Origin: Comamonas sp.
Lineage (GTDB): Bacteria > Pseudomonadota > Gammaproteobacteria > Burkholderiales > Burkholderiaceae_C
Assembly (NCBI GenBank): GCA_028690035.1
Contig: JAQVCA010000001.1
Location: forward strand, 8,410-72,409
Reading direction: 5' to 3'
Length of the DNA: 64,000 bases
Positions 3,596 to 61,398 of this stretch are shown piece after piece. The first letter of the stretch is position 1, and every line of letters starts with the position of its first letter. The notes below the pieces were generated by a model. The model was given only the letters and a program-made list of their open reading frames with translations, did no database searches and was not told the origin of the DNA. Both the position numbers and the translations under genes were made by a program.

Positions 3596-3645
3596 GCCCC
3601 GCAGTGTTCCCATTTACACAGCAGGGCGCGAACCCTAGCCGGGGG
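3596..3645 (-). promoter_or_regulatory. Bipartite late-gene motif copy 1: CCCCCGGCTAGGGTTCGCGCC-N14-GGAACACTGCGGGG before ATG
   Basis: Near-identical to the element at 7831-7881 with identical 14-nt spacing. Confidence 0.65.
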
Positions 3646-5824
3646 ATGCCTCTGGCTGCACACCATCCGCCACAGGTGTTTCAATGCCCTGCAGCAAGCC
3701 AACGGCAGGATTAGCCGGTGTCAGTGGGTTGGTATTGCTGGGCAAGTCCACGCCCTGCCCTGGGCCTGCCGCCTGCGGCACGATAGGGGCGGCATCTCTG
3801 TCCTCGTAGCCAGCAGAGCGAAGCAACCCGTCTGCCGTGGTGGCCGTGGCCGGAATCTGCTCAATCACCTGGGCCGCCTGCACCGCGCCATACTGCGCCT
3901 CCACCGCCTTATTCACAGCTTCAGCCTGCACCTTGGTGGCCTGCGCTTCCAGCAGCTTGGTCTTGGCCTGTAGCGTGGGGTCTTGCCCTTGCTGCGCTTG
4001 CTGGGCCTTCTTGTCCTCGGACAGCTGGAAGTTCTTGGGATCAAGCCGCTGCCCACGGCACAGCTCGGCTGCCAGCTTGGCCGGGTCAAGCTCGTACACA
4101 GGATTGGCCGCTGCCTGCAGCAAACTCATGAGGAACTGCTGCTGCGCATCGCGCTCCACCAGCGCCGACGATGCACGCACATCGATCTGGAAGTCCCCCT
4201 TGATGCTCTCGTCCTCGTTGTAGGCCATCATCCAGTCGAAATAGCGCTGAATGTGCGGGCGCGTCATATAGTCGTCAAAGCGCTTAGCCAAACGGCGCAG
4301 CACGCTCGTGGCATTGTTGTTTTGCATCTGCATGCCGCCCAGCGTGTTGGGCGCATCACCGCGAATGCCTTGCAACATGGCTGGCATGCCCGTGGTGTCC
4401 TCGGCCATCTTGAGCGCGAAGTTGATGATGTTCATCAGCTCGCCCTGCACGCTGGTGACGGCAAAGCTTGCGAAAGCGCCACGCACATCAGATACATCGC
4501 TACTCGTCTCTGCCCGCCACACCTTGCCTGGGCGCAGCGTCCAGTTGCCATCCACCGGAGTGATGCCGTTGCCAATGACCACCTGGGGCGATGCCGACAG
4601 GCCGCTGTTGTCCATCATGGCGCGCACAGCCCCATTGAGCATGCGCTGCACGGTACGAATCTGTCGGCTGATACCCATGCCCCACGGCATACCGGGGCGG
4701 CGCTGCCAGGCCAGCACGTCATACGGGAACTCACCGCTCTCGATGGGGCTGAGCACGCACTTGACCAGGCGGTCATTGATCATCACCGCCATGGCGGGCA
4801 TCTGCTCATCCACATCATCATCCAGCGCCACGCCCATAGCCTGCAGCTGCTGGCGCATGCAGTGGCCGTGAAAAATCCACATCTCATACTCATCGTCGCT
4901 GCGCCGGTACACAGCCTCGGTGCCCTCGCGCGTCTTCGCAGGGCCTTCCCGCAGCGCGGCCAGCAGCTCTGCTTGGTCGTAGCTCTGGTCTTTGAGCATT
5001 TCCTTGAGCTGGCGCTTGCCGATGTACTCGCGCTCCCATGTGTAACTGCCGCCGTGGATGTTCTCGCCGCAGGCAGGGTCGGGGAAGAAATTCCAGAAGT
5101 CGATGCGCTTGGAGCCAGGCTTGATCTCGTCCAGCTTGATTTGCGACTTGATCTTTGTCACCGGGTCTTCGCGCGTCATGCGCACCGAGCGCATCACGGG
5201 ATACGGGCCCTTGAACACGCCTGACCCGCAGCGTGCAGCATCTTCAATCACTTGCCGCACCTCCCCATGCCAATTACTCTCCACCAGCGGGTCTTCAATG
5301 GCCTTCTGCATCTTCTTGGCTGCCTCGGCTGCCTGCTCTGCCTGCAGCTCCAGCGCCTGCTGGGCCTGCACAGGGTCATCCATCTGCATGGCCTGGGCCA
5401 GCTGCGTGAGCTGGTGCTGGCTCAGCGTAGGCAGTGGCGTGGCCTTGATCTCCCAAGCCCGGTCATCCGTGGGCAGCAGCATGTCAGACACCCGCGCACT
5501 GGCCGCATCCACATAGGGGCGGGTGATGTTCAGGAAGACCACCGAGCGTGTCGCTTGCTCGCTCTTGCGCTCGTTGCCCAGCACGGCCTTGGATTTGCTG
5601 CGGTAGAGCATGTTGGACGTTTGAAAAGCCCGGTTGGCATCGTCAATGCCTTGGTAGTGCTCTTCGTCCTCGGTCCACTCCTCCTCGATGCCCGAGCCCG
5701 CGCGACCAGCGATGGCTTCGCGGCGCTTGGCCAGCAGGTTTTGCAGCAGCACCTGGCGGTCGTCAAAGGCAGGTGTGTCGTCGTTGTGGGGCTGCAAGCC
5801 CCCTTGGTTGAAGGTTGCTTGCAT
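3635..5824 (-). CDS. Portal protein
   Basis: 729 aa directly after TerL; P22/podovirus-like portal size; FFPDP and GEFPY..WQRRPG.PWG.G motifs. Confidence 0.85.
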   Translation of the reverse strand: MQATFNQGGLQPHNDDTPAFDDRQVLLQNLLAKRREAIAGRAGSGIEEEWTEDEEHYQGIDDANRAFQTSNMLYRSKSKAVLGNERKSEQATRSVVFLNITRPYVDAASARVSDMLLPTDDRAWEIKATPLPTLSQHQLTQLAQAMQMDDPVQAQQALELQAEQAAEAAKKMQKAIEDPLVESNWHGEVRQVIEDAARCGSGVFKGPYPVMRSVRMTREDPVTKIKSQIKLDEIKPGSKRIDFWNFFPDPACGENIHGGSYTWEREYIGKRQLKEMLKDQSYDQAELLAALREGPAKTREGTEAVYRRSDDEYEMWIFHGHCMRQQLQAMGVALDDDVDEQMPAMAVMINDRLVKCVLSPIESGEFPYDVLAWQRRPGMPWGMGISRQIRTVQRMLNGAVRAMMDNSGLSASPQVVIGNGITPVDGNWTLRPGKVWRAETSSDVSDVRGAFASFAVTSVQGELMNIINFALKMAEDTTGMPAMLQGIRGDAPNTLGGMQMQNNNATSVLRRLAKRFDDYMTRPHIQRYFDWMMAYNEDESIKGDFQIDVRASSALVERDAQQQFLMSLLQAAANPVYELDPAKLAAELCRGQRLDPKNFQLSEDKKAQQAQQGQDPTLQAKTKLLEAQATKVQAEAVNKAVEAQYGAVQAAQVIEQIPATATTADGLLRSAGYEDRDAAPIVPQAAGPGQGVDLPSNTNPLTPANPAVGLLQGIETPVADGVQPEASPG

Positions 5825-5825
5825 G

Positions 5826-7136
5826 TCAGTACCCGATCTCGCGGTCTAAAGGTGTCCAATTGCCACTTGCCTGCACCACAGGCTGTGCTTGCTGGGCACG
5901 GTACATGTGCTCCACAGACATCCCCACATAGCGGAATGCGTCAGCACCGTGGCTGTATTCGTCGTGCAGCGGAGCATTGCCCTCGCCTGCCTTATTCAAA
6001 GCCCGCTGGTAGCGCTTCAGGCACTCCAGCAGCCGCGCAGTCTTGTTGGCGTCAAAGTAGCACCGGGGAAATGCCATACGCGCCAGCTTGATGCCCTCTT
6101 CCACGCCCAGTGCTGCATTGCACCGTACCTGACGGCGACCCAGCTGCTTGAGCCGCTGCTCTGTGCTCATGCCCGTTTGAAAATTGCCGTTCTTGCCGTC
6201 GTGCGGCAGATAGTCCCAGCCCCAGCGATATGGGCGCTTCTCCAGCTGCGCCACGTACCAATCCAGCGTTCGATGGCTATCCTCAAGGTAGTCAATGACC
6301 CGTACATCCTGCGCGCTGCCGACCTGCACCATGACAATGGCCATGGCATCGTTCCAGCCCAAGTCCCAGACGGTGTGCACCGGCAAGCGTGGGTCGTAGG
6401 GCACTTTGCACGCGCGGCCATCGGCATACAGTGCTTCCACTTCGTAGCGATAGATAGCGCCAGCAGCAACCTTTCTGGCCTTGCCTTCCCAGATGTGCTC
6501 GAAGTCATCCTTGCTCATACTCCGCTTGGCTTTCTTGCGCTCTTCGTCCAGTACCGATGGAAACCAGGGGTTGTCGCGCCAGTTGATTTCCACAACCCAG
6601 GTATCTGGACTGGGCGAAGCGATAAAGCGTTGGTACGTCTCATCGGATTCCATGTCCGGGTTGAGCGTCAGCCAAATCTCAGAACCTTCTTTTCGGATCG
6701 TGGGAATCAGCACATCCCAGCTCTTCTTGCTCACGCCATGGGCTTCTTCTACCCAAACGATGTCGCAGCCCTCAAAGGACTTGATGGAGTCCACGGTATG
6801 GGACTGCAAGCCAGCGAACAGGAAAAGCGAGCCATTGACACCACGAATCTCTGTTTCCAGCACTTCAAAGAATGCCCCAAGGCCCAAGCGTGCGATTTGG
6901 TCGGTCAAAAGCTGGTGCACCGACTGCTTGATCGACTTCTGCACCTCACGAGCACAGAGCACGCGCAGTGGATGCTGTGCAGCCATTGCCAGAAGCACCC
7001 CAGCCACAGTCCACGACTTACCGCCGCCGCGCCCCCCATGCATGACCTTGTATCGCTTGGGCTGCCAGATGGGCGCCAGCTTCTGCGGCACCTGCAGCAC
7101 GGGTGCATCTTGTGCATCACTCGCCTGCATCGTCAT
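5826..7136 (-). CDS. terL: Terminase large subunit (PBSX family)
   Basis: Walker A GGRGGGKS, Walker B WVEEA, LTLNP, nuclease WDLGWND and HGADAFRY. Confidence 0.93.
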   Translation of the reverse strand: MTMQASDAQDAPVLQVPQKLAPIWQPKRYKVMHGGRGGGKSWTVAGVLLAMAAQHPLRVLCAREVQKSIKQSVHQLLTDQIARLGLGAFFEVLETEIRGVNGSLFLFAGLQSHTVDSIKSFEGCDIVWVEEAHGVSKKSWDVLIPTIRKEGSEIWLTLNPDMESDETYQRFIASPSPDTWVVEINWRDNPWFPSVLDEERKKAKRSMSKDDFEHIWEGKARKVAAGAIYRYEVEALYADGRACKVPYDPRLPVHTVWDLGWNDAMAIVMVQVGSAQDVRVIDYLEDSHRTLDWYVAQLEKRPYRWGWDYLPHDGKNGNFQTGMSTEQRLKQLGRRQVRCNAALGVEEGIKLARMAFPRCYFDANKTARLLECLKRYQRALNKAGEGNAPLHDEYSHGADAFRYVGMSVEHMYRAQQAQPVVQASGNWTPLDREIGY

Positions 7137-7968: not shown

Positions 7969-8925
7969 TTAGCTGCAGTTACCCACCGTACCACCTCGGC
8001 CCTGCCAGCGGTTGAGGAAGTGCATGGCAGTGTGCATCTTGCTCAATGCTTCATCCACTTCGGTCCAGCCACTGACCAGCAGGTCGTGCAGCGTTTGTGC
8101 TGCATCGTGCAGATCTTGGCGGGCCTGGGCGGTGGGCAGGTGGTCGCTCCAGTTCAGGATATCCAAGGCGATGCTCTTGGCAACTTCAATGGTTCGGCCA
8201 TTGCGCGGGTAAGGGTTGGCCGGGTTGTAGCGGTAAGTGCCAACCGGGGGCGGCTGCATGTGCAGATCCAGACGCGGCAGTTGCAGTGCTGCCTGACTCT
8301 GGATGGCGGGTTGTGTGGATTCATCCACCAACTCCCACTGGGCAATGTGGCGGGCAATGATGGACAGGGCTTCCTCAAACTCGCTGGCTGGTATCTGGCG
8401 ATAGGGCACTTTGAAGTGCGACTTGAGTTTGCTCCAGCCCTGGCGCATTGCCTCACCGCGTCTTCCCATGGGCAAGCGCTTGACGTTGCTTTCCAGCAGG
8501 GCGCGCAGGGCAATTTGTTGGGCTTCGTTCAGAGTGTCGCCGGGCTGCGTGGTGTAGGGAGCCTTGCGCAACAGCTCTGCTTCCATCGCGTTGAAGGCGG
8601 TGATGTAGGCCAACTTCCATTGCAGCGCCTCTTTGCCGGTGAAGCCCATGGCCAGCAGCGTGAAGCCATCGCGGGTGATGCGGTAAGCTGGGTCTTTACG
8701 GGTGCGACCCATGCCCAAATCGACGTCGATTTGTATGAGCGCAAAATTGCGCTGATACCCCTCTGGCAATTCTTTCAGCAGATTCTTGATGGCGCGAAGC
8801 ACGTCCTTGTGCTGCTTGCCGAAGTGCTCCGCGATTTGCAGGCTGGTGGTGGTGATTTGACCGTCGATGATTTTGAGGTCAGGGGTTGCGATAGCAACGG
8901 ACGTGCCAGTGGTGGTGTCAGCCAT
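7969..8925 (-). CDS. rha: Rha-family regulatory protein with ORF6C-like domain (antirepressor-like)
   Basis: ITTTSLQIAEHFGKQHKDVLRAI...Y.ITRDGFTLLAMGFTGKEALQWKLAYI.AFN (Rha); WSKLKSHFKVPYRQIPASEFEEA (ORF6C-like); start MADTTTG with AAAGGAG SD. Confidence 0.88.
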   Translation of the reverse strand: MADTTTGTSVAIATPDLKIIDGQITTTSLQIAEHFGKQHKDVLRAIKNLLKELPEGYQRNFALIQIDVDLGMGRTRKDPAYRITRDGFTLLAMGFTGKEALQWKLAYITAFNAMEAELLRKAPYTTQPGDTLNEAQQIALRALLESNVKRLPMGRRGEAMRQGWSKLKSHFKVPYRQIPASEFEEALSIIARHIAQWELVDESTQPAIQSQAALQLPRLDLHMQPPPVGTYRYNPANPYPRNGRTIEVAKSIALDILNWSDHLPTAQARQDLHDAAQTLHDLLVSGWTEVDEALSKMHTAMHFLNRWQGRGGTVGNCS

Positions 8926-8933
8926 GGTTGGCT

Positions 8934-8973
8934 CCTTTGTGACAAGTTTTGAACCTGTCATACCTCCCGCCAA
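8934..8973 (-). promoter_or_regulatory. c4 target pair a2/b2 (UUGGCGG ... ACAAAGG), b2 overlapping the rha SD
   Basis: Plus-strand CCGCCAA 8967-8973 and CCTTTGT 8934-8940. Confidence 0.75.
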
Positions 8974-8987
8974 GGAGGGGTGACAGA

Positions 8988-9049
8988 CCGTGTGGGGTTG
9001 GCGGACCGGACAAAGGAACCGGCGCACCCTTGCGGGTGCCCCCACACGG
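8988..9049 (-). ncRNA. c4-like antisense RNA (P1 c4 / P4 CI type)
   Basis: 10-bp closing stem 8988-8997/9040-9049, inner hairpin 9024-9039, and single-stranded CCUUUGU and CCGCCAA complementary to two flanking target pairs. Confidence 0.8.
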
Positions 9050-9081
9050 CCCGTCGTAAACGGAGCCATGCTGCACAAATG

Positions 9082-12741: not shown

Positions 12742-13008
12742 CTAAATCCGGCTCCAGCGCATGGCCATGCGCTTCTCAGCATCACGGCGGCTTGCCGCGC
12801 TATTGATGGTGATGCCGGGGCCTGGCACGTAGCGTTGGCGTGGCTTGACGGCCAGCGTTACCGTGCTCGTGGTGCCAGGGCCATCGAAAGCCGTACGGGC
12901 CTTCTTTCCTGCGGTGGATTGGGTGCTGGTAGAGATGTCGCGCAGATCGGGCTTGCCTGCGGGTGCAAGGCTGGCGCACAGGCCTATCCAAGACGCGGTG
13001 GTGCTCAT
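12742..13008 (-). CDS. Phage hypothetical protein
   Basis: 88 aa; ATGA overlap with the upstream gene. Confidence 0.55.
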   Translation of the reverse strand: MSTTASWIGLCASLAPAGKPDLRDISTSTQSTAGKKARTAFDGPGTTSTVTLAVKPRQRYVPGPGITINSAASRRDAEKRMAMRWSRI

Positions 13009-13268
13009 GCCTGTTGCCCTCCAATGTCTTCCGAGAGCAATGGATTGCCCCGCAGTGCGCGAACCAAGACACTGGCCTTATGCACTTCCTCTTCCACATG
13101 AGCCCCCAGGACTTGGTTGACGTACGCGGTACGGTCCAAGCCGCGCGCCATGGCCAGGGCGTCCAATGCCGTCACGATGTGCGTGGGACACATGCCGCGC
13201 AGCTCCATGCTTGGTGGTGGATTGCCCGTGCGGGCACGACTGAATACGGGGGTGTTGTCTGGAGCCAT
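13005..13268 (-). CDS. Small regulator, CII-position, ribbon-helix-helix-like
   Basis: ELRGMCPTHIVTALDALAMARGLDRTAYVNQVL strand-helix-helix pattern; AAGGAGG SD. Confidence 0.6.
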   Translation of the reverse strand: MAPDNTPVFSRARTGNPPPSMELRGMCPTHIVTALDALAMARGLDRTAYVNQVLGAHVEEEVHKASVLVRALRGNPLLSEDIGGQQA

Positions 13269-13356
13269 AAATCAGGCCTCCTTGCTGTAAAGGGTGCCCG
13301 CCCTACCCTGGGCTACGATGGAAGCTCCTACACAACCAACGCCAAGGAGGGCGGAC

Positions 13357-13653
13357 ATGAACGAGGCAGAACAGCTCAAGGTGTTACAAGAGCACATCAA
13401 GGTCTTGGAAGAGCGAATCCAGCTTCTAGAAGCTCCTGTCGTCGACAACGCAGCAAGAAACATGGCGCTCATGACCGTTCTCCGGGCGTGCATCCAGTGT
13501 TCTGGCAATCAGCCTGCAATTGCGCAGATGTGCGACAACATGTACGCCATGATTCAGGCCCAACCCGGCACTCTTCTAGGAGACAAGAAAATCTTCGAGG
13601 CGATGAAGCAGCATGCTGCGTGGATGCTGAAACCGGAGCAGCCACTGACCTAA
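13357..13653 (+). CDS. Counter-oriented small helical protein (moron 1)
   Basis: 98 aa; AAGGAGG SD; preceded by the conserved leader 13314-13350. Confidence 0.7.
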   Translation: MNEAEQLKVLQEHIKVLEERIQLLEAPVVDNAARNMALMTVLRACIQCSGNQPAIAQMCDNMYAMIQAQPGTLLGDKKIFEAMKQHAAWMLKPEQPLT

Positions 13654-13936
13654 CCTCGTCCGACTGCAACGCTGCGTACAGAGCGGCAACCTCTTGGCGC
13701 AGCGCCTGGCCCTCCGCCAAAGCTGCGGCGCCACCACCCAGCGATGGGAGCGGCTTCGGAGCCTCTATAGGTGCGTCAGCGGGGTCGGCGTCGGGCGTGC
13801 TCGGTGGTGTTCCACGGATCAAACGCCAGTTGGCAGGATGGCATTCCACCTGGGTGGCATGCTGCAGCACGAAAGGCAGGCCGTTTCGGTGGCAGACACT
13901 GCCTGCTGGCAAGGTGAAGGTTTGCAGGTCAGGCAT
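13469..13936 (-). CDS. Phage hypothetical protein
   Basis: AGGAGG SD; 3' 185 nt overlap moron 1 in antisense. Confidence 0.5.
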   Translation of the reverse strand: MPDLQTFTLPAGSVCHRNGLPFVLQHATQVECHPANWRLIRGTPPSTPDADPADAPIEAPKPLPSLGGGAAALAEGQALRQEVAALYAALQSDEVRSVAAPVSASTQHAASSPRRFSCLLEECRVGPESWRTCCRTSAQLQADCQNTGCTPGERS

Positions 13937-14019
13937 GGGAAGCCTCCTGGTTGTCAGGGGAGGCCAAGGTCACTTTGCAAAAATGGGAGTTCCTCAACAC
14001 CCACGCAAAGGCCTTGACC

Positions 14020-14253
14020 ATGATCGAAATAAAGTGGCAACCACATCCGGCGCACCAGCAGCGCATACGCTGCGTGCAGCACACCAGCACGGAAGAAGAG
14101 GCTCCAAAAGAAGGCGATGTCATCACGCGTCCTTTTCTTGTGGATCGAGAGCATCAGCAACCAGTCCCTCTGGAAGCATCCACCGTCGTTCATGTGCATT
14201 CCAGCGAGGGCATCCACAGTGCGGTGGTGCACTTGAAGCGACTTTCGGATTAG
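14020..14253 (+). CDS. Counter-oriented small protein (moron 2)
   Basis: 77 aa from MIEIKWQ; preceded by leader copy 13983-14011. Confidence 0.55.
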   Translation: MIEIKWQPHPAHQQRIRCVQHTSTEEEAPKEGDVITRPFLVDREHQQPVPLEASTVVHVHSSEGIHSAVVHLKRLSD

Positions 14254-14506
14254 CCGCGCGCCAAGCCAGAATCCTCTCCTCCGGCATCACGGGGCTGTAC
14301 AAAATCACCTCTTTGCCGCTTTTGGAGATCACGCCCGCGCCGCCACGTGTAAAACGGATGGGTTCGCCATCGGGATGGAATACCGGCGGCAAAAACTTCG
14401 GTACCGGCGTGCCGTCCAAAAAGAATCCAGGCACCCAATCTGGGTTCACCTCGGGCTCGTAGTCATGCGGTGCGTCTTCTGCAGGGTCGTATGCGACAGC
14501 GGTCAT
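14123..14506 (-). CDS. Phage hypothetical protein downstream of cro
   Basis: GGAGG SD; 3' end overlaps moron 2 in antisense. Confidence 0.55.
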   Translation of the reverse strand: MTAVAYDPAEDAPHDYEPEVNPDWVPGFFLDGTPVPKFLPPVFHPDGEPIRFTRGGAGVISKSGKEVILYSPVMPEERILAWRAANPKVASSAPPHCGCPRWNAHERRWMLPEGLVADALDPQEKDA

Positions 14507-14509
14507 AGG

Positions 14510-14815
14510 TCATGCCTCCTGGGGGATAGATGCGGATGCAGTGCTGGTGGATGCTGGAGGGCAAAAGTCCAACGCAGGGCGGCCCAGTGGATGCGGCCAT
14601 GCCGCATCTGGGATGCGATACCAAGTCACATGCGGGAGAAGTTCCTCGCATGTCACAGCGCCACCAGTGGCGCGCTCGATAGATGGGCAGCGAGCACTTG
14701 GGATGGGGCGAGAGCCATCACTCCATTGACCAATCAGTTGAGGAGGGACATCCAAGTCAGATGCCAGTCTTGCCTTCCTGCCACGCTCGATAGAAGTGAA
14801 TTCGCTCAATTTCAT
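14510..14815 (-). CDS. cro: Cro-like (YdaS-family) HTH regulator
   Basis: KARLASDLDVPPQLIGQWSDGSRPIPSARCPSIERATGGAVTCEEL.P; divergent from cI. Confidence 0.88.
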   Translation of the reverse strand: MKLSEFTSIERGRKARLASDLDVPPQLIGQWSDGSRPIPSARCPSIERATGGAVTCEELLPHVTWYRIPDAAWPHPLGRPALDFCPPASTSTASASIPQEA

Positions 14816-14822
14816 GGGCATC

Positions 14823-14887
14823 ATGATAAGCGATTCGCTTATTCATATCAAGCGTGACGCTTCTTCAAATGTGTAAGCATTTCGCTT
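14823..14887. promoter_or_regulatory. OR region: PR (minus strand TTGATA-17-TATCAT) and three operators AAGC-N5-GCTT
   Basis: TAAGCGATTCGCTTA 14827-14841, AAGCGTGACGCTT 14850-14862, AAGCATTTCGCTT 14875-14887; -35 at 14846-14851, -10 at 14823-14828. Confidence 0.85.
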
Positions 14888-14898
14888 CAAATATGTAC

Positions 14899-15348
14899 AT
14901 GAAGACGATTTCAGACATCAGGCGCGAGAACTTGGATGCACTCGCTCGCCAGCTAGGCTCAGTTGACGCGGTTGCGGCAGCGTCATCGACGTCGCCTGTG
15001 TACCTGAGTCAAATCAAAAACCAGGCTTTGGACTCGAAGACAGGGAAGCCGAGGCAGATGGGGAGCGCTCTGGCGAGAAAGTTGGAAGTTGGCTGCAATA
15101 AGCCATCTGGATGGATGGATACGGATCACCAGTCGCCGCCTAACGTAGAGATAAGTTCCACAGAAATATCCCTAGGGCAGACTTTGGCGCGGCTGGGTCA
15201 GGCGCTGGAGCGTGCCAAGCCGCAGACACGCGCTGCTGTGGCCGACCTACTGAGCCGTTACGCTCAAGACCCGGCGCAGGGCAAATCCCTTGCACAAGCC
15301 ATTGAAATGCTGGTGCAGTCCGATATAGACAAAAAAGCTGACGCATGA
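14899..15348 (+). CDS. cI: CI-like repressor without an S24 peptidase domain
   Basis: IRRENL..L...GS..A.A...TSPVYLSQI......R.MG..LARKLE...KPSGWMD HTH; 149 aa; no SD before the ATG (lambda cI-like leaderless start). Confidence 0.85.
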   Translation: MKTISDIRRENLDALARQLGSVDAVAAASSTSPVYLSQIKNQALDSKTGKPRQMGSALARKLEVGCNKPSGWMDTDHQSPPNVEISSTEISLGQTLARLGQALERAKPQTRAAVADLLSRYAQDPAQGKSLAQAIEMLVQSDIDKKADA

Positions 15349-15821
15349 TCCCGCCATTGGACGAGCGCGGCTTGCTGCCGCCCGGCTGCCACCGCTGCAA
15401 AGACTGGGCTGAGCTGGAAGAAAGATTTGCCTTTAATCCCTACCGCCAGCGCCTACTAGGGCAGGCTATGCAATTCGTGCAGCATCGCTTGACCCCATTG
15501 GCCGGTGGGCTCAGACTGGTGGTCGCAGGCAGTTACTTGAGCGACAAGGCGCAGCCTGGCGACGTAGAGATGCTGGTGTCTTTGCCAATGCACAGCATTG
15601 GGCAGCACGTGGGCCTGTTGGATATGTTCGATAAAGAGGGCGGCAAGCGCAGCATCTGGACAACCCACAGAGTGGACTTTTATGTTCAGTTAGAAGGCTT
15701 TGGCGGTAACGACTTGGCCCTGTTTTTCCAGTACGTTGGAGAGAAAACCGCCGCAGACAAAGGGCTAGACGCCAAGGACAAACGCGGCACAATCGAGATC
15801 GAATCATGGACACTGCCGTAA
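15345..15821 (+). CDS. Minimal nucleotidyltransferase, Pol-beta superfamily (DUF6932-like)
   Basis: IPPLDERGLLPPG.H N-terminus; hGS-x9-D-h-E (AGSYLSDKAQPGDVEM) plus a later RVDF; ATGA overlap with cI. Confidence 0.75.
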   Translation: MIPPLDERGLLPPGCHRCKDWAELEERFAFNPYRQRLLGQAMQFVQHRLTPLAGGLRLVVAGSYLSDKAQPGDVEMLVSLPMHSIGQHVGLLDMFDKEGGKRSIWTTHRVDFYVQLEGFGGNDLALFFQYVGEKTAADKGLDAKDKRGTIEIESWTLP

Positions 15822-16795
15822 ATCACCTGCACCACCGCGCCACACTGCTGCTGCAGCAGATCGCCATGGCCATGCAGGCGCAAAGCAGCCAGGGCGTGGA
15901 CATGAGCGGCTTCATTGCAAGCTACCAGCGCAAGCTGCAAGAGCTGTACAGCGAAGAGCTGCCTCTAGCCATACTGCGCGATACCAGCGACATCATTTTG
16001 CATGTTGAAGGCCCCGCAGCACGCCACTACGCAGCAGGCAGCGGCATGGTGGCTTGGCTGTGTGGCGAGGCAGAAAAGCGTATCCGCCAGCTGGGTATGT
16101 CTGCCATCAAAACCAATGGCAGCAGCGCAGAATCGGCAGAAAGCGACTTGCGCGTGCTACTCAATGGCTTGGCTCCTGGCAGCCTGTACTTGGGTTTCTC
16201 CGTCGATTCGGCCCAGCGTATGGCGGTGCAGCAGCAAGATGCACTGGCGCTGCCTGATGGCGATGTCATGGCATCCATCCGTGGTGCGGTGCGTACCCTG
16301 CCGTTGGTGCAGCAGTTTGTGGAAGACGAATCCATCAACCCAGCCATCTCTGAGGCCATCGCTGACGCCCAAGTGCGAGACGCCTCCCTGATGGCTGCCT
16401 ACCACCTATCGCCCACCGGGCGGCGCGGCATCCACACCATAGAGATCAGCGCACCCGGCTCCCACCAGACGCCCGCCGCCTTCACCAACCGCGAGCGCGT
16501 GGTGCTGCGCGAAAGCGCCCTGCGCGCCCCCGTGATGCGCACCATGACATCAGGCACATTTGTGGGTGAACTGCGCGAGGTGGACTTGGATGCCAAACGC
16601 TTTCACCTGCGCGACGTACCAGGCATTGGCGGCATCCGCTGCGTGCTTGGCAATCTCAATGCCGACACCGCCCGCAAACTCATCGGCCATGGCGTGCGCG
16701 TCAGTGGTGAGTACGAGGCCGACGCCGACGGCAAACCTCGCCTGATGCGCGTGCAGACGGTAGAGCCATATCAAACCCAGAAATCCCTGCAATAA
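15806..16795 (+). CDS. 329-aa hypothetical protein with predicted C-terminal OB-like beta-barrel
   Basis: 16-nt overlap with the NTase; helical N-terminus, APGS motif, C-terminal GTFVGELREVDLDAKRFHL...GVRVSGEY...RLMRVQTVE strand pattern. Confidence 0.7.
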   Translation: MDTAVNHLHHRATLLLQQIAMAMQAQSSQGVDMSGFIASYQRKLQELYSEELPLAILRDTSDIILHVEGPAARHYAAGSGMVAWLCGEAEKRIRQLGMSAIKTNGSSAESAESDLRVLLNGLAPGSLYLGFSVDSAQRMAVQQQDALALPDGDVMASIRGAVRTLPLVQQFVEDESINPAISEAIADAQVRDASLMAAYHLSPTGRRGIHTIEISAPGSHQTPAAFTNRERVVLRESALRAPVMRTMTSGTFVGELREVDLDAKRFHLRDVPGIGGIRCVLGNLNADTARKLIGHGVRVSGEYEADADGKPRLMRVQTVEPYQTQKSLQ

Positions 16796-16801
16796 TTATT
16801 C

Positions 16802-17293
16802 ATGCCAGCCATTTACAGCCCCGACATTGCCAGCATGACGCCTCTTGGCGCGCAGGCTTTTGCCGCGCGCAATCTAGAGCTGCTGGCAGCCATTGAAAAC
16901 ACGCTCGACGGTCTCAGCGCGGACACTCAACTGCTGCGCGCCATCCACGACGGCTACCAAGAAATACAGCAACGCCTTGTCGGAACCAATGGCTCCATTG
17001 ATGACAGTGGTCGGATACAGGCCAAGCTGGACAAAGCCAGCGCCGCCTGCGCTCGCATTTACCAAGATGCATGCCGGCGCCACCAAAGTGCCTGCAAAGA
17101 CCCACAACTACACCCCGACGATGGCGTGGCCGATGCTTACGGCGCCTTCATCGAGGCGCTGGGCCAGCTGCACGACACCATAGAGGCTCTGCGCGAATGG
17201 ATTGCCACGCACGATGCCGTGCTGCAGCCCGCCACGGATGCCGTGTACTCCAGTGCGGACGACTTGTTTGCCGCTTTGCTACCCCAGCAGTGA
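16802..17293 (+). CDS. Putative antitoxin, all-helical, 163 aa
   Basis: GTGA overlap with the downstream toxin; C-terminal VYSSADDLFAAL resembles toxin-binding tails of RelB/DinJ-type antitoxins. Confidence 0.6.
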   Translation: MPAIYSPDIASMTPLGAQAFAARNLELLAAIENTLDGLSADTQLLRAIHDGYQEIQQRLVGTNGSIDDSGRIQAKLDKASAACARIYQDACRRHQSACKDPQLHPDDGVADAYGAFIEALGQLHDTIEALREWIATHDAVLQPATDAVYSSADDLFAALLPQQ

Positions 17294-17586
17294 CGCGCCG
17301 TATAGCAATCACCGGGTTCGCTCACTCTGAGCGCTTTGCCTCAGACCTACGCAGCGCCCCGCCAGAAGTGCAGCGCGCCACCCTGGAGGCGCTTAAGCAG
17401 CTGCAAGCCCACCCCAGCGCCAAGTCACTGCGCCTGCACACCTTAAGCGGCATGCCCAAGCCCACCATTTGGAAGATCGACGTGTACGCAAACCACGCTT
17501 GGCAAGTGACATTTGAGCTAAACGGCACCGTGGCCGAGCTCAAGCGCCTCGGCACACATAAAACCATTGACCGCGACCCGCGCTAA
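17290..17586 (+). CDS. RelE/YafQ-superfamily toxin
   Basis: GTG start; SERF..DL...P..VQ.A...AL.QL...P.AKSLRLHTLSG..WKI.V...WQVTF...LKRLGTH; 98 aa. Confidence 0.72.
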   Translation: MTRRIAITGFAHSERFASDLRSAPPEVQRATLEALKQLQAHPSAKSLRLHTLSGMPKPTIWKIDVYANHAWQVTFELNGTVAELKRLGTHKTIDRDPR

Positions 17587-17604
17587 AGAGCACCCAGTTC
17601 AACC

Positions 17605-17627
17605 AACCGCCTTCGGGCGGTTTTTTT
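17605..17627 (+). terminator. Intrinsic terminator ending the cI-cargo operon
   Basis: AACCGCC-TTCG-GGCGGTTTTTTT. Confidence 0.85.
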
Positions 17628-17632
17628 ATCCT

Positions 17633-17661
17633 TTGCAATCTATACGCAAGCTACGTACAAT
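17633..17661 (+). promoter_or_regulatory. Sigma70 promoter of higBA
   Basis: TTGCAA-17-TACAAT, with an imperfect TACG-N7-CGTA palindrome in the spacer; ATG 7 nt after the -10. Confidence 0.75.
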
Positions 17662-17668
17662 AATCCGA

Positions 17669-18007
17669 ATGAAAGCAGTCTTTGTAGAGCTACCGGCCTT
17701 TGAGCGATACCGCGCTGACTATCTGGACGACGAGAACTTTCGCAACCTGCAAGACAGCCTGATGAAAAACCCAGAAGCCGGTGATGTGATCGAAGGCACA
17801 GGCGGCCTGCGCAAAGTACGCCACGCAGACCCTAGACGGGGCAAAGGCAAGCGCGGAGGCCTGCGAGTGATCTACTACTGGTGGGATGGCAAGAACCAGT
17901 TTTGGCTCTTCACCCTCTACGACAAAGACGAACTTGATGACTTGAGCCCAAAGCAAAGGACTGCGCTCAAGACCATGCTCAAGGCAGAACTGGAGGCTCG
18001 ACAATGA
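17669..18007 (+). CDS. higB: HigB/RelE-family toxin (toxin-first TA)
   Basis: FVELPAF, NPEAGDVIEGTGGLRKVR, KGKRGGLRVIYY, LFTLYDK. Confidence 0.9.
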   Translation: MKAVFVELPAFERYRADYLDDENFRNLQDSLMKNPEAGDVIEGTGGLRKVRHADPRRGKGKRGGLRVIYYWWDGKNQFWLFTLYDKDELDDLSPKQRTALKTMLKAELEARQ

Positions 18008-18318
18008 CCAAACGCGACATCTTTGCAGAACTGACCGAAGGATTTGAAGCCTTAAAGGAACAGCGCACCGGTAAGCGCACCTTGCGCACCCATGAGGTGC
18101 AGATCAAACCAGAGGTGAAAATCGAAGCCGCTGAGATCGTTTCCCTGCGGGATAGCTTGGGCCTGTCCCGCGCTGTGTTCGCTCGCTATCTGCGCACCAA
18201 CCCTCGCACCCTAGAAAACTGGGAACAAGGCAGGGCCAAGCCTAACGCCCAGGCTGCGCTCATCATGCGCCTGGTTGAAAAGTATCCAGACACGGTCAAG
18301 CGTCTAGCTGCCGTCTAA
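18004..18318 (+). CDS. higA: HigA-family HTH antitoxin
   Basis: EIVSLRDSLGLSRAVFARYLRTNPRTLENWEQGRAKP; ATGA overlap with the toxin. Confidence 0.9.
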   Translation: MTKRDIFAELTEGFEALKEQRTGKRTLRTHEVQIKPEVKIEAAEIVSLRDSLGLSRAVFARYLRTNPRTLENWEQGRAKPNAQAALIMRLVEKYPDTVKRLAAV

Positions 18319-18323
18319 ACTGG

Positions 18324-18344
18324 CGCCCCCCAGGGCGGTTTTTT
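18324..18344 (+). terminator. Probable terminator after higA
   Basis: CGCCC-CCCA-GGGCG followed by GTTTTTT. Confidence 0.55.
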
Positions 18345-18407
18345 GCCCAAGAAAAACCCTCTCGGCTTACGATGGAGGCTCCTCAACTTCCATCCCGAGA
18401 GGGTTTT

Positions 18408-18644
18408 ATGACTCAGCAGAATAACACCGAGCACCCATTAGATATGCAAGCAGCATATGCCGTCACCGCGCTTGCTGCGGCACTTTGCAAGCAGCCAGGT
18501 ATTGATGGCCAGAAGCTGCGTCTCGACTTCCTTGACGCCATGGAAGGGATTGCAAAGTCTCCGCAGGGTGTTGAAACTGTAGGGCGCTCTATTGCGGCCC
18601 TGATGGCTACTGTTTTGGATGCGCGCACTGCCGGTATTGATTAA
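18408..18644 (+). CDS. Small helical protein (moron 3)
   Basis: 78 aa, GAGAGG SD, preceded by leader copy 18368-18403. Confidence 0.62.
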   Translation: MTQQNNTEHPLDMQAAYAVTALAAALCKQPGIDGQKLRLDFLDAMEGIAKSPQGVETVGRSIAALMATVLDARTAGID

Positions 18645-18807
18645 CGGATTCCTCAAACCCCTTCAGACTCTGCGCTTGAGTCTGGTCAAGCTCAGACTTG
18701 CAACCTTTGTAGGCTTGCGCCACAGCAACGCCGAGCCTCCAGCCATCGGGCTCACCACAGCAATCCACCTTGAGCGCCGCGATCAAGGGCAGTAAAAACT
18801 TCAACAT
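18607..18807 (-). CDS. Small hypothetical protein convergent with moron 3
   Basis: GGAGG SD, MLKFLLPLIAAL...; 38-nt 3' overlap. Confidence 0.4.
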   Translation of the reverse strand: MLKFLLPLIAALKVDCCGEPDGWRLGVAVAQAYKGCKSELDQTQAQSLKGFEESVNQYRQCAHPKQ

Positions 18808-18819
18808 CTCATCCTCCAG

Positions 18820-18845
18820 ACCGCCCACCTCGGGCGGTTTTTTTG
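18820..18845 (+). terminator. Intrinsic terminator upstream of PL
   Basis: ACCGCCC-ACCTC-GGGCGGTTTTTTT. Confidence 0.8.
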
Positions 18846-18885
18846 TGCCCAGGCCATCCAGGCACAACGGCAGTTTAGCGAAAAA

Positions 18886-18926
18886 TAAGCGAAATGCTTG
18901 ACGCTGTTAAGCGTATCGCTTACATT
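18886..18926 (+). promoter_or_regulatory. PL-equivalent promoter with two operators (OL)
   Basis: TTGACG(18898-18903)-17-TACATT(18921-18926); TAAGCGAAATGCTTG and TAAGCGTATCGCTTA match the OR consensus. Confidence 0.88.
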
Positions 18927-19031
18927 GCTTCCATCGCAGCACAAAAGCGTTACGCAAAAGCGCTGCGATGGGCGCCAAGTGATCGGACTGACCGCCCTGG
19001 GTCTTTAACAAGCGGCTGAGAGTGATTTGGA

Positions 19032-19134
19032 GAGGTGGCGGCGTGGAAGGACACGCGAAGCTGTAGCAGCGGCAGGTAGGCGCAACGCGCTGAACGCAGC
19101 CACTGGAGCCGGTACCAAGCCCGGCCCACCTCCC
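19032..19134 (+). ncRNA. tRNA-like structured RNA in the PL leader
   Basis: 7-bp stem GAGGTGG/CCACCTC, D-arm-like GCGTG-GAAGGA-CACGC, T-arm-like GCCGG-TACCAAGC-CCGGC; no canonical anticodon arm. Confidence 0.45.
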
Positions 19135-19318
19135 TAAATCAAATCTCAGCCGCGCACGACCAGCCGATGTTGCTCCCCTACCTGTCTGGGGTTCGTCCGG
19201 CTCAATAGCACCTGCGGGCATGGTCGCAGCTCTGCGCGGTATCCCTGCCGTCCACAGTCCGCCCAAGCGCGGTAAACGGGCAACAGGGTGAGGTGAAGAC
19301 GGCCAAGAGCAAAACGGT

Positions 19319-19402
19319 CACGCTGGATGGAATGCCAGCAACGCCCGCCCCGAGCGCATCGGGGAGTCAACCCAGAGCCTTGTGACAGAGGGCTGCGGTT
19401 TG
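19319..19402 (+). repeat. Structured direct repeat copy 1 (three hairpins)
   Basis: CACGCTGGATGGAATGCCAGC..CGCCCGCCCCGAGCG..ATCGGGGAG..CCAGAGCCTTGTGA..GAGGG..GGTTTG. Confidence 0.85.
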
Positions 19403-19416
19403 ACAAGGAGAGAGGC

Positions 19417-19743
19417 ATGGAGCCAATGCAACGAGTAGAGATCGTGCGGATGTGTAAAACAGACGTGTGGATTGAAGATGATTTTTTTGGCGGTCGGCAT
19501 GTAGTGGTGCAGCACGAAGGATGCGCCCCATTCACATATGCGTCATTCAACTATGACTATCGGTACACCAGCAACGCTGAGACGCTATCAGCGGCGACAG
19601 AGTTGGCTATGCAACTTGGTGCAACCACGCCGGTGGCGCGCAAGTCTAGGGCGCCAGAAGCTCTCAATAAAGAAGAAATCAAGCGGCAAATTGAGGTGCT
19701 GCAAGACCTGCTGCTCAAGCTGAATAAGCAAAACGGAACATAA
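19417..19743 (+). CDS. Phage hypothetical protein bracketed by the direct repeats
   Basis: 108 aa, AAGGAG SD directly after repeat copy 1. Confidence 0.65.
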   Translation: MEPMQRVEIVRMCKTDVWIEDDFFGGRHVVVQHEGCAPFTYASFNYDYRYTSNAETLSAATELAMQLGATTPVARKSRAPEALNKEEIKRQIEVLQDLLLKLNKQNGT

Positions 19744-19750
19744 AAATGGC

Positions 19751-19835
19751 CACGCTGGATGGAATGCCAGCCCGCCCGCCCCGAGCGGTCAATCGGGGAG
19801 CAAACCAGAGCCTTGTGATGGAGGGTTGTGGTTTG
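19751..19835 (+). repeat. Structured direct repeat copy 2
   Basis: Highly similar to 19319-19402; differences fall mostly in loops and linkers. Confidence 0.85.
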
Positions 19836-19887
19836 CTTACTAACCGCCTCCTCTGATACGCTCGCCCCATAAAAACTAGGAGAAGTT

Positions 19888-20166
19888 ATGAAAAAAGCTA
19901 TTTGGATAGTTGCTTGCTTGGTCACTTTGGCAGGCTGTGCAACAAGCTCAACAGGGGTCGCCCCGCTCGGCGATGGTCGTTATATGTTGCACGGCTCCGA
20001 CCTGACTGGCTGGGGTACTGCGAACGAAGTCAAGGCTGCCTTATTGAAAGAAGCTGGAGAATTTTGCGCCAAACAGGGTAAGGAACTTTCTCAGGTGTAT
20101 CACAGCGGCAAGGAGATGGGATTCATCACCTCAGCAAATGCTGACATTACCTTTCGCTGTAAGTAA
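19888..20166 (+). CDS. Lipoprotein (moron; possible superinfection exclusion)
   Basis: Signal peptide II with LAGC lipobox; AGGAG SD; AT-richer; downstream terminator 20225-20255. Confidence 0.8.
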   Translation: MKKAIWIVACLVTLAGCATSSTGVAPLGDGRYMLHGSDLTGWGTANEVKAALLKEAGEFCAKQGKELSQVYHSGKEMGFITSANADITFRCK

Positions 20167-20396: not shown

Positions 20397-20472
20397 GCGT
20401 CAGTAGCTCAACGGATAGAGCACCGGTCTTCTACATCGTGGGTTGCAGGTTCGAGTCCTGCCTGACGCGCCA
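20397..20472 (+). tRNA. tRNA-Arg (anticodon UCU), phage encoded
   Basis: Cloverleaf: acceptor GCGTCAG/CTGACGC, D-arm GCTC/GAGC, loop CT-TCT-AC, T-loop TTCGAGT, encoded CCA; one mismatch in the anticodon stem. Confidence 0.93.
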
Positions 20473-56050: not shown

Positions 56051-56374
56051 GCTTCGCTGACATCCGCTTTCCTGAAGAAAGCATTCGTTGGTTGGAGAAC
56101 CTCCCGCGACACGGCTGTACCGATTGGCGGATGCGACTGTGGCTGTGGAAGGGCCTGTTGTAGCGCTGGGCATTGTGCCACTGAAAGCCGCTGCCTGCGC
56201 CAACGGTCTTCCATAAGACCGCAAACCAGTCGCTTTGCACAGGGGCACTTTCCCTGTACTGGAAAACACGCAGCATGCAGACCGACGCTGCGGTCGCGCA
56301 TCGCTGCGTCCAGATGGCTTTGCGCATTCGGTTCTCGCATACCATCGGTGCCACTTTGCTCTTGGTGCCTGCTT

Positions 56375-61169: not shown

Positions 61170-61193
61170 GCCGCGTGCCATAATCGGGCGTTT

Positions 61194-61398
61194 TTGCGGG
61201 AGAGAGGGCCACTGCACCACCGGGCAGATGGCTCCGCCGAAGGCGCAAACTCCCATAATCGCTCAGGCCCATATACCGCAAAAAAAATTTCGCCGACTGG
61301 AGAGCAGCCACCCCCACCCCGCGCTGGGCGCTGTGGCTCACCGAAGGGGCAAGTGCGCGCCAGCGCGCACGCAACTCTCAGGTACCAAGGACAGAGGG
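61194..61398 (+). ncRNA. Tandem glycine riboswitch
   Basis: Two aptamers, each with GGAGAG...CCGAAGG.GCA...CTCAGG; CATAAT -10 at 61179-61184. Confidence 0.9.

What the first reader, a model, noticed from the sequence alone, without database searches (positions are those of the whole stretch)
13314..18403. Three dispersed copies of a conserved ~35-nt leader in front of three unrelated small plus-strand genes
Seen: ATGGAAGCTCCTACACAACCAACGCCAAGGAGG (13318), ATGGGAGTTCCTCAACACCCACGCAAAGG (13983) and ATGGAGGCTCCTCAACTTCCATCCCGAGAGGG (18372). Copies 1 and 3 start inside a TACGAT -10-like box. Each has a covarying stem (TGG/CCA, TGGG/CCCA, ATGGAGG/CTTCCAT) around an anti-SD-like (C/T)TCCT, then the SD and ATG (13357, 14020, 18408). 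The leader ATG is in frame in copies 1 and 3 but not in copy 2, favouring RNA/DNA-level conservation. Inference: a portable expression cassette or riboregulator shared by swappable morons.
Basis: partly seen in the sequence, partly recalled or inferred. Interest (0 to 1): 0.68.

Follow-up and report, generated by a model that had tools for sequence, protein, structure and literature searches.

The report
Portable start-codon hairpin of prophage genes
The three repeats are copies of a widespread, uncatalogued ~70-base hairpin that sits directly against the start codon of many unrelated small prophage genes (and of some transposase genes in other phyla) and most likely gates their translation, probably together with an antisense transcript.

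Summary
The three motifs (13318, 13983, 18372) are the only copies in the window. Each is the apex of a ~70-nt hairpin whose arms differ between copies but stay complementary. The 3' arm holds the Shine-Dalgarno sequence and ends at the ATG.

The same element occurs in about 70 IMG/VR contigs and in many Comamonadaceae genomes, in front of at least 44 unrelated small-protein families. A clear relative precedes ISL3 (ISPfr2-like), IS1380-like and ISAs1-like transposase genes in Actinobacteria. Covariation supports the hairpin. No Rfam family matches.

In the prophage class the reverse strand folds much better, because C·A mismatches on the gene strand become G·U pairs. In most loci a divergent gene starts only 20-35 nt beyond the hairpin, so leftward transcription must cross it.

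Best reading: a portable translation-initiation gate that occludes SD and AUG, probably working as a cis-antisense module like IS10 RNA-IN/RNA-OUT. An internal -10-like hexamer may give a transcript lacking the 5' arm. No transcript ends could be obtained, so the promoter and antisense steps are inferred. The cross-phylum conservation of the loop is unexplained.

The parts
13288..13360 (-). Element copy 1: ~70-nt hairpin. Arms CCGCCCT.../...AGGGCGG; apex ATGGAAGCTCCTACACAACCA at 13318-13338 on the + strand.
   Evidence: CM R1 84.7 bits. The minus-strand fold is -36.0 kcal/mol, z -3.9. The plus-strand fold is -24.5, z -1.3.
13954..14023 (-). Element copy 2: hairpin with different arms (GGCCAAGG..CTTTGC / GCAAAGGCCTTGACC); apex ATGGGAGTTCCTCAACACCCA at 13983-14003 on the + strand.
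   Evidence: CM R1 40.5 bits. The minus-strand fold is -30.5, z -4.1. The plus-strand fold is -21.6, z -1.3.
18345..18411 (-). Element copy 3: perfect 13-bp outer stem (AAAACCCTCTCGG / CCGAGAGGGTTTT); apex ATGGAGGCTCCTCAACTTCCA at 18372-18392 on the + strand. On the minus strand the hairpin is followed by UUUUUCUU, which looks like a terminator.
   Evidence: CM R1 41.1 bits. Folds: -33.6, z -4.7 on the minus strand; -32.3, z -6.1 on the plus strand. Sequence.
13314..13319 (+). -10-like hexamer TACGAT at the top of the 5' arm of copy 1. The equivalents are AAAAAT at 13979-13984 and TACGAT at 18368-18373.
   Evidence: Read directly. A hexamer of form nAnnAT occurs at this place in 97 of the 99 distinct family members tallied. 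Its second base, A, is invariant in the 64-sequence alignment although unpaired. No -35 partner was found.
13357..13653 (+). Gene A (98 aa). Its start codon abuts the 3' arm of copy 1; the SD AAGGAGGG lies inside the arm.
   Evidence: ORF list. GC by codon position is 0.61/0.32/0.67, which looks coding. Homologues in L044, L054, L072 and L110; the copies in L044, L054 and L110 directly follow an element, while the L072 copy was not positioned relative to one. No Pfam or PHROG family.
14020..14253 (+). Gene C (77 aa), starting directly after copy 2.
   Evidence: GC by codon position is 0.69/0.37/0.59. No family hit and no homologue among the fetched loci.
18408..18644 (+). Gene D (78 aa), starting directly after copy 3.
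   Evidence: A copy-3-like element followed by a similar N-terminus occurs in the Comamonas MAG locus L114. No family hit.
13005..13268 (-). First gene of the long leftward (replication/lytic) gene block. Its ATG lies only 25 nt beyond the left foot of hairpin 1.
   Evidence: Homologues in L020, L055 and L146. Replication genes lie downstream on the same strand. A ribbon-helix-helix fold is guessed by eye only; Pfam finds nothing.
13469..13936 (-). Gene B, divergent from gene C. Its ATG lies about 22 nt left of hairpin 2. Only the N-terminal ~41 aa are conserved; the tail overlaps the 3' end of gene A.
   Evidence: tblastn gives 63-66% identity over residues 1-41 in L003, L015, L019 and L040. 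ORF coordinates.
18607..18867 (-). ORF E, convergent with and overlapping gene D. An ATG at 18807 with a GGAGG SD is the likelier start. Its transcript would run antisense through D and reach hairpin 3.
   Evidence: ORF list. GC by codon position is 0.63/0.39/0.66. A promoter-like site on the minus strand at 18910-18882, TTAACA-17-TATTTT, matches 9 of 12 positions.
18324..18337 (+). Terminator-like hairpin plus T-run that ends the upstream HigB/HTH operon just before copy 3.

Best explanation
Each copy is a portable translation-initiation gate. It is a ~70-nt inverted repeat that folds, as RNA, into a long hairpin. The 3' arm (gene strand) contains the Shine-Dalgarno sequence and ends at the start codon of whatever small gene has been joined to it.

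Shown:
- the hairpin and its covariation;
- its fixed position against the SD and AUG;
- its spread across unrelated genes and across phyla;
- its better pairing on the strand opposite the gene in the prophage class.

Inferred mechanism, modelled on IS10 RNA-IN/RNA-OUT plus fold-back inhibition:
- Transcripts entering from upstream carry both arms and are translationally closed.
- A transcript starting inside the element, downstream of the conserved nAnnAT hexamer, would lack the 5' arm and be open.
- The opposite-strand transcript is either the leader of the divergent gene or, at copy 3, the 3' end of convergent ORF E. It forms the stable hairpin, and its apical loop is complementary to the 5' end, SD and AUG of the gene's mRNA, so it represses that mRNA.
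For: Hairpin with covariation:
- At least ten unrelated arm sequences all keep complementarity around one apex.
- On a 78-sequence alignment, 81.9% of cells pair, against 72.6% in shuffles and 45-55% when partners are slid. There are 173 double-change cells against 72 in shuffles; 0 of 500 shuffles reach the observed values.
- The stem next to the apex covaries: GAATGG/CCATTC, CGATGG/CCATCG, GCTGG/CCAGC.

Position:
- The start codon lies 18 nt after CCA in 55 of 92 elements, and within 15-24 nt in 87 of 92.
- An SD-like run lies in the 3' arm in 79 of 92.

Strand:
- The reverse complement folds better in 63 of 64 elements, summing to -2403 against -1830 kcal/mol.
- With the loop replaced by GAAA, 93 elements are better on the minus strand and 15 on the plus strand.
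- Among 55 cluster representatives there are 144 minus-favoured wobble positions, 31 plus-favoured and 79 transversions.
- U·G is the commonest pair at one stem position, in 44 of 78 sequences.
- The window's copies 1 and 2 beat shuffled sequence only on the minus strand.

Geometry:
- In 50 of 87 loci a divergent ORF with an SD starts 20-35 nt left of the hairpin. That leaves no room for its promoter outside the element or the + gene.

Stand-alone copies:
- Window copy 3, L005/L154, L031, L055 and L114 have a U-run after the hairpin on the minus strand.
- At copy 3 a minus-strand promoter-like site and ORF E lie upstream of that hairpin.

Transposase context:
- The same architecture sits between the left inverted repeat and the transposase start in ISPfr2-like ISL3 elements. 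Fold-back and antisense control are established principles for IS10 and IS50 (my own knowledge).
Against: - No transcript 5' or 3' ends could be obtained. All matching RNA runs are unstranded contigs.
- No canonical sigma-70 promoter (at least 8 of 12 positions) lies within 150 nt on either strand in 43 representative loci. Both the internal sense promoter and any antisense promoter are therefore unproven.
- The nAnnAT hexamer partly overlaps the stem, so part of its conservation could be structural.
- The strand asymmetry is absent in the Actinobacterial ISL3 set (50 against 59). It is modest in the tool-based count (81.9% against 76.0%).
- Copy 3 folds equally well on both strands.
- A cis-antisense pair does not by itself explain why the ~21-nt loop is conserved across phyla.
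Confidence: 0.45

Rival explanations
1. Sense-strand riboregulator only. The whole hairpin is transcribed as the 5' leader of the + gene and hides the SD and AUG. A trans-acting factor (protein or small RNA) recognises the invariant apical loop and opens or stabilises the hairpin. There would be no internal promoter and no antisense role.
For: - The SD and AUG sit in the 3' arm in essentially all members.
- The loop is conserved while the arms vary, the usual signature of a loop-specific binder.
- The loop carries an anti-SD-like YUCCU.
- Copy 3 is very stable on the + strand (-32.3 kcal/mol, z -6.1).
Against: - + strand hairpins of copies 1 and 2 are no better than shuffled sequence (z -1.3).
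- The class has systematic C·A mismatches on the + strand.
- A factor common to Comamonadaceae phages and Actinobacterial insertion sequences would have to be a universal host component, and none was identified.
- At copy 3 a terminator immediately precedes the 5' arm, so little read-through would supply the full leader.
Confidence: 0.2
2. DNA-level control region. The conserved apex is a core promoter, or a pair of face-to-face promoters, of a phage switch. The inverted arms are dyad operators for a repressor encoded by the divergent gene.
For: - The element lies in divergent intergenic regions, next to the first gene of the leftward replication block.
- Some divergent genes give weak ribbon-helix-helix or CII-type hits.
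- -10-like hexamers are readable on both strands (nAnnAT on the + strand, CATnnT on the - strand).
- The second base of the hexamer, A, is invariant although unpaired.
Against: - The arms are complementary over 13-22 bp and are separated by about 30 bp, unlike known operators.
- The same arm sequence accompanies many different divergent genes, or none.
- The element also occurs inside insertion sequences that encode only a transposase.
- Mismatches are enriched for wobble-compatible transitions, 175 against 79 transversions.
- No -35 element was found.
Confidence: 0.12
3. An element of the leftward transcript only: a 5'-UTR or intercistronic stabiliser, a processing hairpin, or (copy-3 type) an intrinsic terminator. 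Its contact with the + gene's ATG would be a by-product of tight packing.
For: - The minus-strand fold is the stable one.
- In many loci a minus-strand SD and ATG follow 20-35 nt later.
- Stand-alone copies have a U-run after the hairpin on the minus strand.
Against: - The one association that holds nearly everywhere is the + start codon against the 3' arm (92 of 99 distinct elements). A minus-strand gene follows in only about 57% of loci and is absent in the insertion-sequence contexts checked.
- Only 14 of 92 elements have a U-run.
Confidence: 0.1
4. A recombination or cassette-boundary site: a single-stranded DNA hairpin like an integron attC, used to swap genes.
For: - Metagenome contigs share only 13277-13359 and diverge on both sides; one variant lacks the whole 13023-13941 block.
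- Tandem arrays of element plus small gene occur at 300-nt and 471-nt spacing in L003, L006, L040 and L067.
Against: - Here the apex is conserved and the base is variable, the reverse of attC.
- No recombinase is consistently adjacent.
- Breakpoints at any conserved 70-bp island are expected from ordinary homologous recombination between mosaic phages.
Confidence: 0.05

Closest known systems
IS10/Tn10 RNA-IN / RNA-OUT, with fold-back inhibition of read-through transcripts
   Same: - An inverted repeat is centred near the presumed mRNA 5' end.
- The right arm carries the SD and AUG of the mobile element's gene.
- A -10-like hexamer sits at the top of the left arm.
- The opposite strand gives a stable stem-loop whose loop would be complementary to the mRNA 5' end.
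- It is found in front of transposase genes.
   Different: - No sequence similarity.
- Promoters and transcripts are not demonstrated here.
- The loop sequence is conserved across unrelated genes and phyla, which IS10 does not require.
- The element is joined to many non-transposase phage genes.
P2/186-type switch with face-to-face promoters; P22 immI sar antisense RNA
   Same: - Divergent phage genes are separated by too little DNA for back-to-back promoters, so their 5' transcripts must overlap.
- Antisense coverage of a ribosome-binding site lies in an immunity or accessory region.
   Different: - Those systems are single-copy and phage-specific.
- They lack a shared hairpin with a conserved apex.
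- They are not portable between genes.
SD-sequestering leader hairpins (RNA thermometers; the Mu com-mom translational operator)
   Same: A stem occludes the SD and AUG. A conserved loop could be the handle for an activator.
   Different: - No ROSE or fourU signature.
- The stem is far longer and more stable (-30 to -45 kcal/mol on the minus strand).
- The better-pairing strand is the antisense one.
Rfam C4 antisense RNA (P1/P7/P4 type), present in the same prophage at 8976-9061(-)
   Same: A phage antisense RNA whose loop (GGUUCCUUUGU) masks a ribosome-binding site. That loop resembles the YUCCU of the element's + strand apex.
   Different: C4's 11-nt complement lies at the Rha/ant gene's ribosome-binding site (8940-8930), not in the element. 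Only 6 nt could pair with the element's minus strand. The structure is different.

Membership tests
Any Rfam 15 family | A covariance-model match at the gathering score, or even at E<=10. | tested here: not met
   The whole window at gathering score gives only C4, Burkholderiales-2, sucA, tRNA and the glycine riboswitch, none at the element. Window 13200-14100 (copies 1 and 2) at E<=10 gives one chance ZMP hit elsewhere; copy 3 was covered only by the gathering-score scan. Six Actinobacterial loci carrying the element give only chance hits.
IS10-type RNA-IN/RNA-OUT antisense control | The inverted repeat spans the mRNA 5' region, with the SD and AUG in the distal arm. | tested here: met
   Geometry; folds.
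IS10-type RNA-IN/RNA-OUT antisense control | A discrete antisense RNA made from an outward promoter inside the gene's 5' end. | not testable with these tools
   Only unstranded contigs were available. No canonical promoter was predicted.
IS10-type RNA-IN/RNA-OUT antisense control | The sense promoter sits inside the repeat, so that the mRNA lacks the 5' arm. | tested here: inconclusive
   The nAnnAT hexamer is conserved (97 of 99 distinct elements) and its second base is invariant. There is no -35 element and no transcription-start data.
Intrinsic (Rho-independent) terminator | A GC-rich stem immediately followed by a U-tract. | tested here: inconclusive
   Met on the minus strand for copy 3 and its class. 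Not met for copies 1 and 2. Only 14 of 92 family members have an adjacent U-run.
Integron attC site | Conserved R/L boxes at the base of an imperfect hairpin with a variable centre, and an integron integrase nearby. | tested here: not met
   The conservation pattern is inverted: the apex is conserved and the base varies. No integrase was found among the neighbouring ORFs that were scanned.
RNA thermometer (ROSE / fourU) | A short, weak SD-pairing stem with a U-rich or ROSE motif. | tested here: not met
   The stems are 17-25 bp and fold at -22 to -45 kcal/mol. There is no Rfam ROSE or fourU hit.
Protein-coding leader peptide | A conserved reading frame and substitutions biased to synonymous positions. 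| tested here: not met
   Apart from the dominant 18-nt spacing, 16 elements are in frame and 21 are out. The variable positions of the motif are not third-codon positions.

The most novel reading that the evidence does not exclude
The invariant loop (GGRAGYUCYYACAC..CC) is a recognition handle for a universal host component such as the ribosome, RNA polymerase or a conserved RNase. The element would then be a previously undescribed class of horizontally mobile translation gate, shared by temperate phages of Betaproteobacteria and insertion sequences of Actinobacteria. It would be able to put any captured gene under the same host-state-dependent control.
Probability: 0.2. Interest if true: 0.8.

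Novelty: new variant of a known kind. Interest (0 to 1): 0.62.

Why it matters
If the mechanism holds, one compact and transferable cis-module controls the expression of dozens of unrelated accessory (moron) genes in Comamonadaceae prophages, and of transposases in another phylum.

- It would give a direct handle for finding and switching on cryptic prophage accessory genes. Many such genes in other phages are defence, anti-defence or exclusion functions.
- It would add a well-populated family to the RNA-motif catalogues.
- It raises a sharp question: why a 21-nt loop is held constant across phyla while everything around it changes.
- It marks the exact junctions where these phages exchange genes.

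Tried and rejected
- **Transcript ends.** All four sequencing-run searches returned only Logan contigs. The three read-laying runs showed assembly breaks at the repeat, not RNA ends.
- **Cultured phages and plasmids.** BLAST of the region and of the family consensus against GenBank phages found nothing. The prophage-type consensus found nothing in plasmids.
- **Rfam.** No family matches.
- **Literature.** Searches for the motif strings and for ISL3 stem-loop or antisense control gave nothing relevant.
- **Plus-strand consensus folding.** RNAalifold on the + strand MAFFT alignment recovered almost no structure. The cause was the C·A mismatches and register shifts between classes.
- **Promoter scan.** Sigma-70 scans on both strands in 43 loci found essentially nothing.
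- **Rejected by reading the sequence only:** sigma-54, sigma-32 and ECF (GGAAC) promoter readings; a DnaA box; dif; a T7-like promoter; tRNA T-loop or RNase P mimicry; a CsrA site (CsrA is absent from Actinobacteria, my own knowledge); nut/boxA.
- **C4 RNA as the trans partner.** Rejected: its 11-nt target is the Rha/ant ribosome-binding site.
- **FRT resemblance.** The match to the Flp FRT arm (GAAGTTCCTATAC) is treated as coincidence.
- **Leader peptide.** Rejected on frame statistics.

Full report
**1. What is in the window**

The window's first ~20.4 kb is a prophage.
- Portal (3635-5824) and large terminase (5826-7136) are on the minus strand.
- A Rha-type antirepressor is preceded by an Rfam C4 antisense RNA at 8976-9061(-).
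- NinB, a DnaC-like loader and small early genes follow on the minus strand down from 13268.
- The + strand from about 13357 to 20166 carries small accessory genes. They include a DUF6932 nucleotidyltransferase and a HigB/RelE-like plus HTH pair.
- tRNA-Arg at 20397-20472 marks the likely boundary.

No fourth copy exists. A covariance model scored over all 64 kb without filters gives 84.7, 41.1 and 40.5 bits for the three, and 14 bits for the best other site.

**2. True anatomy**

The ~21-nt motif is the apex of a much longer hairpin.
- Copy 3: AAAACCCTCTCGG pairs perfectly with CCGAGAGGGTTTT.
- Copy 1: CCGCCCT pairs with AGGGCGG, plus further pairs.
- Copy 2: GGCCAAGG..CTTTGC pairs with GCAAAGGCCTTGACC.

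The three arm pairs are unrelated in sequence. In each copy the 3' arm carries the SD and stops at the ATG.

**3. The family**

An exact scan of IMG/VR with ATGGRRGYTCCTMMACNNCCA returned 77 loci.
- About 70 show the full architecture. The extended consensus is GGTGCCCGCCnCCTCCCGGGGCAGA-ATGGAAGYTCCTACACAACCA-TTCCCGRGAGGGGCGGAC-ATG.
- Seven are chance hits.

True members were found in Paracidovorax, Acidovorax, Comamonas, Variovorax, Alicycliphilus, Roseateles, Simplicispira, Hydrogenophaga, Delftia and Lampropedia.

Unexpectedly, the same apex inside a hairpin that ends at a start codon also precedes other mobile-element genes:
- ISL3-family transposase genes in Nocardioides, Propionibacterium, Leucobacter, Mycobacterium, Pseudoclavibacter, Demequina, Gordonia and others;
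- an IS1380-like transposase in Streptomyces;
- an ISAs1-like transposase in Actinokineospora;
- an integrase gene.

I fetched 80 metagenomic relatives of the ISL3 transposase without using the motif. About 57 of them carry the hairpin just upstream of the start codon, mostly with the loop GATGGRAGTTCTCACRCYGCCCATC. In the rest my arm anchor hit unrelated sequence and the region was not examined. Plasmid annotation calls these 'ISL3-like element ISPfr2 family transposase'.

The model also found variant-loop copies:
- a second site in L072, where CTGG..CCAG covaries and the hexamer reads TATGCT;
- third tandem copies in L003, L006 and L040, with loop CTGGTGCGGCTTACACAACCA.

**4. Is the hairpin selected?**

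Yes.
- On a 78-sequence alignment, 81.9% of cells pair. Shuffles give 72.6% and slid controls 45-55%.
- There are 173 double-change cells against 72 in shuffles; 0 of 500 shuffles reach the observed values.
- At least ten unrelated arm families keep complementarity.
- The pairs adjoining the apex covary (GAATGG/CCATTC against CGATGG/CCATCG).

**5. Which strand?**

Evidence for the strand opposite the gene:
- Folding each of 64 distinct elements shows the reverse complement more stable in 63. The sums are -2403 against -1830 kcal/mol.
- With the loop replaced by GAAA, 93 favour the minus strand and 15 the plus strand.
- A strand-neutral alignment of the arms in 55 cluster representatives gives 144 positions that are C·A on the gene strand (G·U on the other), 31 of the opposite kind, and 79 transversions.
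- At one stem position U·G is the majority pair, 44 of 78.
- The window's copies 1 and 2 are significantly stable only on the minus strand: z -3.9 and -4.1 there, against z -1.3 and -1.3 on the plus strand.
- Copy 3 is stable on both strands.

Caveats:
- The ISL3 set is symmetric, 50 against 59.
- The tool's overall pairing differs only moderately between strands, 81.9% against 76.0%.

**6. Context**

The genes joined to the element are extremely diverse: 81 distinct proteins in 44 unrelated clusters, 48-156 aa. The window's proteins A, C and D are mutually unrelated and have no Pfam or PHROG family.

In 50 of 87 loci a divergent ORF with an SD begins 20-35 nt to the left of the hairpin.
- In the window these are 13268<- (first gene of the replication block) and 13936<-. 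The N-terminus of the latter is conserved in L003 and L040.
- That leaves no room for the leftward promoter outside the element, so leftward transcripts must cross it.
- This is the face-to-face layout known from P2 and 186 (my own knowledge).

Stand-alone copies have a U-run after the hairpin on the minus strand. These are window copy 3, L005/L154, L031, L055 and L114. At copy 3 a promoter-like site (18910-18882) and ORF E lie upstream on that strand. The hairpin would then be the 3' end of an RNA antisense to gene D.

Metagenome contigs share only 13277-13359 and diverge on either side. One variant lacks the whole 13023-13941 block. The element is therefore a mosaic junction.

**7. Promoter question**

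A hexamer of form nAnnAT ends at the AT of ATGG in 97 of the 99 distinct members tallied. Examples are TACGAT, CAGAAT, AAAAAT, GAGGAT, TATGCT, GATAAT and TAAAAT. Its second base is invariant in the 64-sequence alignment although unpaired.

No -35 partner and no canonical sigma-70 promoter is found on either strand within 150 nt. A start site in the loop is therefore plausible but unproven.

**8. Not coding, and not a catalogued family**

The leader ATG is in frame mostly because one 18-nt spacing dominates. Other spacings split 16 in frame against 21 out.

Rfam 15 has no matching family, at gathering score over the whole window and at E<=10 for copies 1 and 2. GenBank phages contain no copy. 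No paper in the library prints the motif.

**9. Verdict**

The structure, however, is a long hairpin that occludes the SD and AUG, and the better-supported RNA is the antisense or leftward one.

I favour an IS10-like sense/antisense gate with fold-back protection (confidence 0.45). A sense-only riboregulator, a DNA-level switch region, a leftward-mRNA element and a recombination site are rivals.

The cross-phylum constancy of the loop remains unexplained and is the most interesting loose end.

Noticed in passing
window 19320-19405 and 19750-19835 (+): A second, unrelated ~85-nt repeated leader (CACGCTGGATGGAATGCCAGC..CGCCCCGAGCG..CGGGGAG..AACCAGAGCCTTGTGA.GGAGGGYTGYGGTTTG). Each copy lies upstream of a small + ORF (ATG at 19418, and ATG at 19888 which starts a lipoprotein-like product). 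It may be another structured leader.
   Followed up: no
window 8976-9061 (-) and 8930-8940 (-): The Rfam C4 antisense RNA (71 bits) has a loop GGUUCCUUUGU at 9020-9010. That loop is complementary over 11 nt to ACAAAGGAGCC, the ribosome-binding site of the Rha/antirepressor gene (ATG at 8925). This is a P1/P7-type immI module in a Comamonadaceae prophage.
   Followed up: partly
window 19163-19235 (-): An Rfam Burkholderiales-2 RNA hit (82.4 bits) lies inside the prophage's accessory region, next to the repeated leaders.
   Followed up: no
window 18345-18910: Gene D (+, 18408-18644) and ORF E (-, 18807/18867-18607) are convergent and overlapping. A + terminator lies at 18818-18840 and a minus-strand promoter-like site at 18910-18882. 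The two mRNAs would be almost fully complementary, an excludon-like pair.
   Followed up: partly
window 15345-15821 and 17567-18318 (+): A DUF6932 (nucleotidyltransferase-like) gene, and a RelE/HigB-like toxin followed by an Xre/MqsA-like HTH antitoxin (PHROG 5869 and 2104), lie in the accessory arm of the prophage.
   Followed up: no
L003, L006, L040, L067 (IMG/VR contigs): Tandem arrays of three elements, 300 and 471 nt apart, each followed by a different small gene. Each element is preceded by a remnant of a divergent gene's SD and start codon (CCATGGCTCACCTCCTCGG). This suggests that the whole divergent control region is the unit that gets duplicated or recombined.
   Followed up: partly
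window 13318-13333 and family consensus: The apex GAAGTTCCTACAC matches the yeast Flp FRT arm GAAGTTCCTATAC at 12 of 13 positions. I treat this as coincidence.
   Followed up: no
window 56055-56136 (-), 61187-61288 (+): The host part of the window carries a sucA RNA motif and a glycine riboswitch (Rfam gathering-score hits). This fits a Burkholderiales chromosome. Locus L114, from a Comamonas MAG, has copy-2-like and copy-3-like elements 6 kb apart.
   Followed up: no
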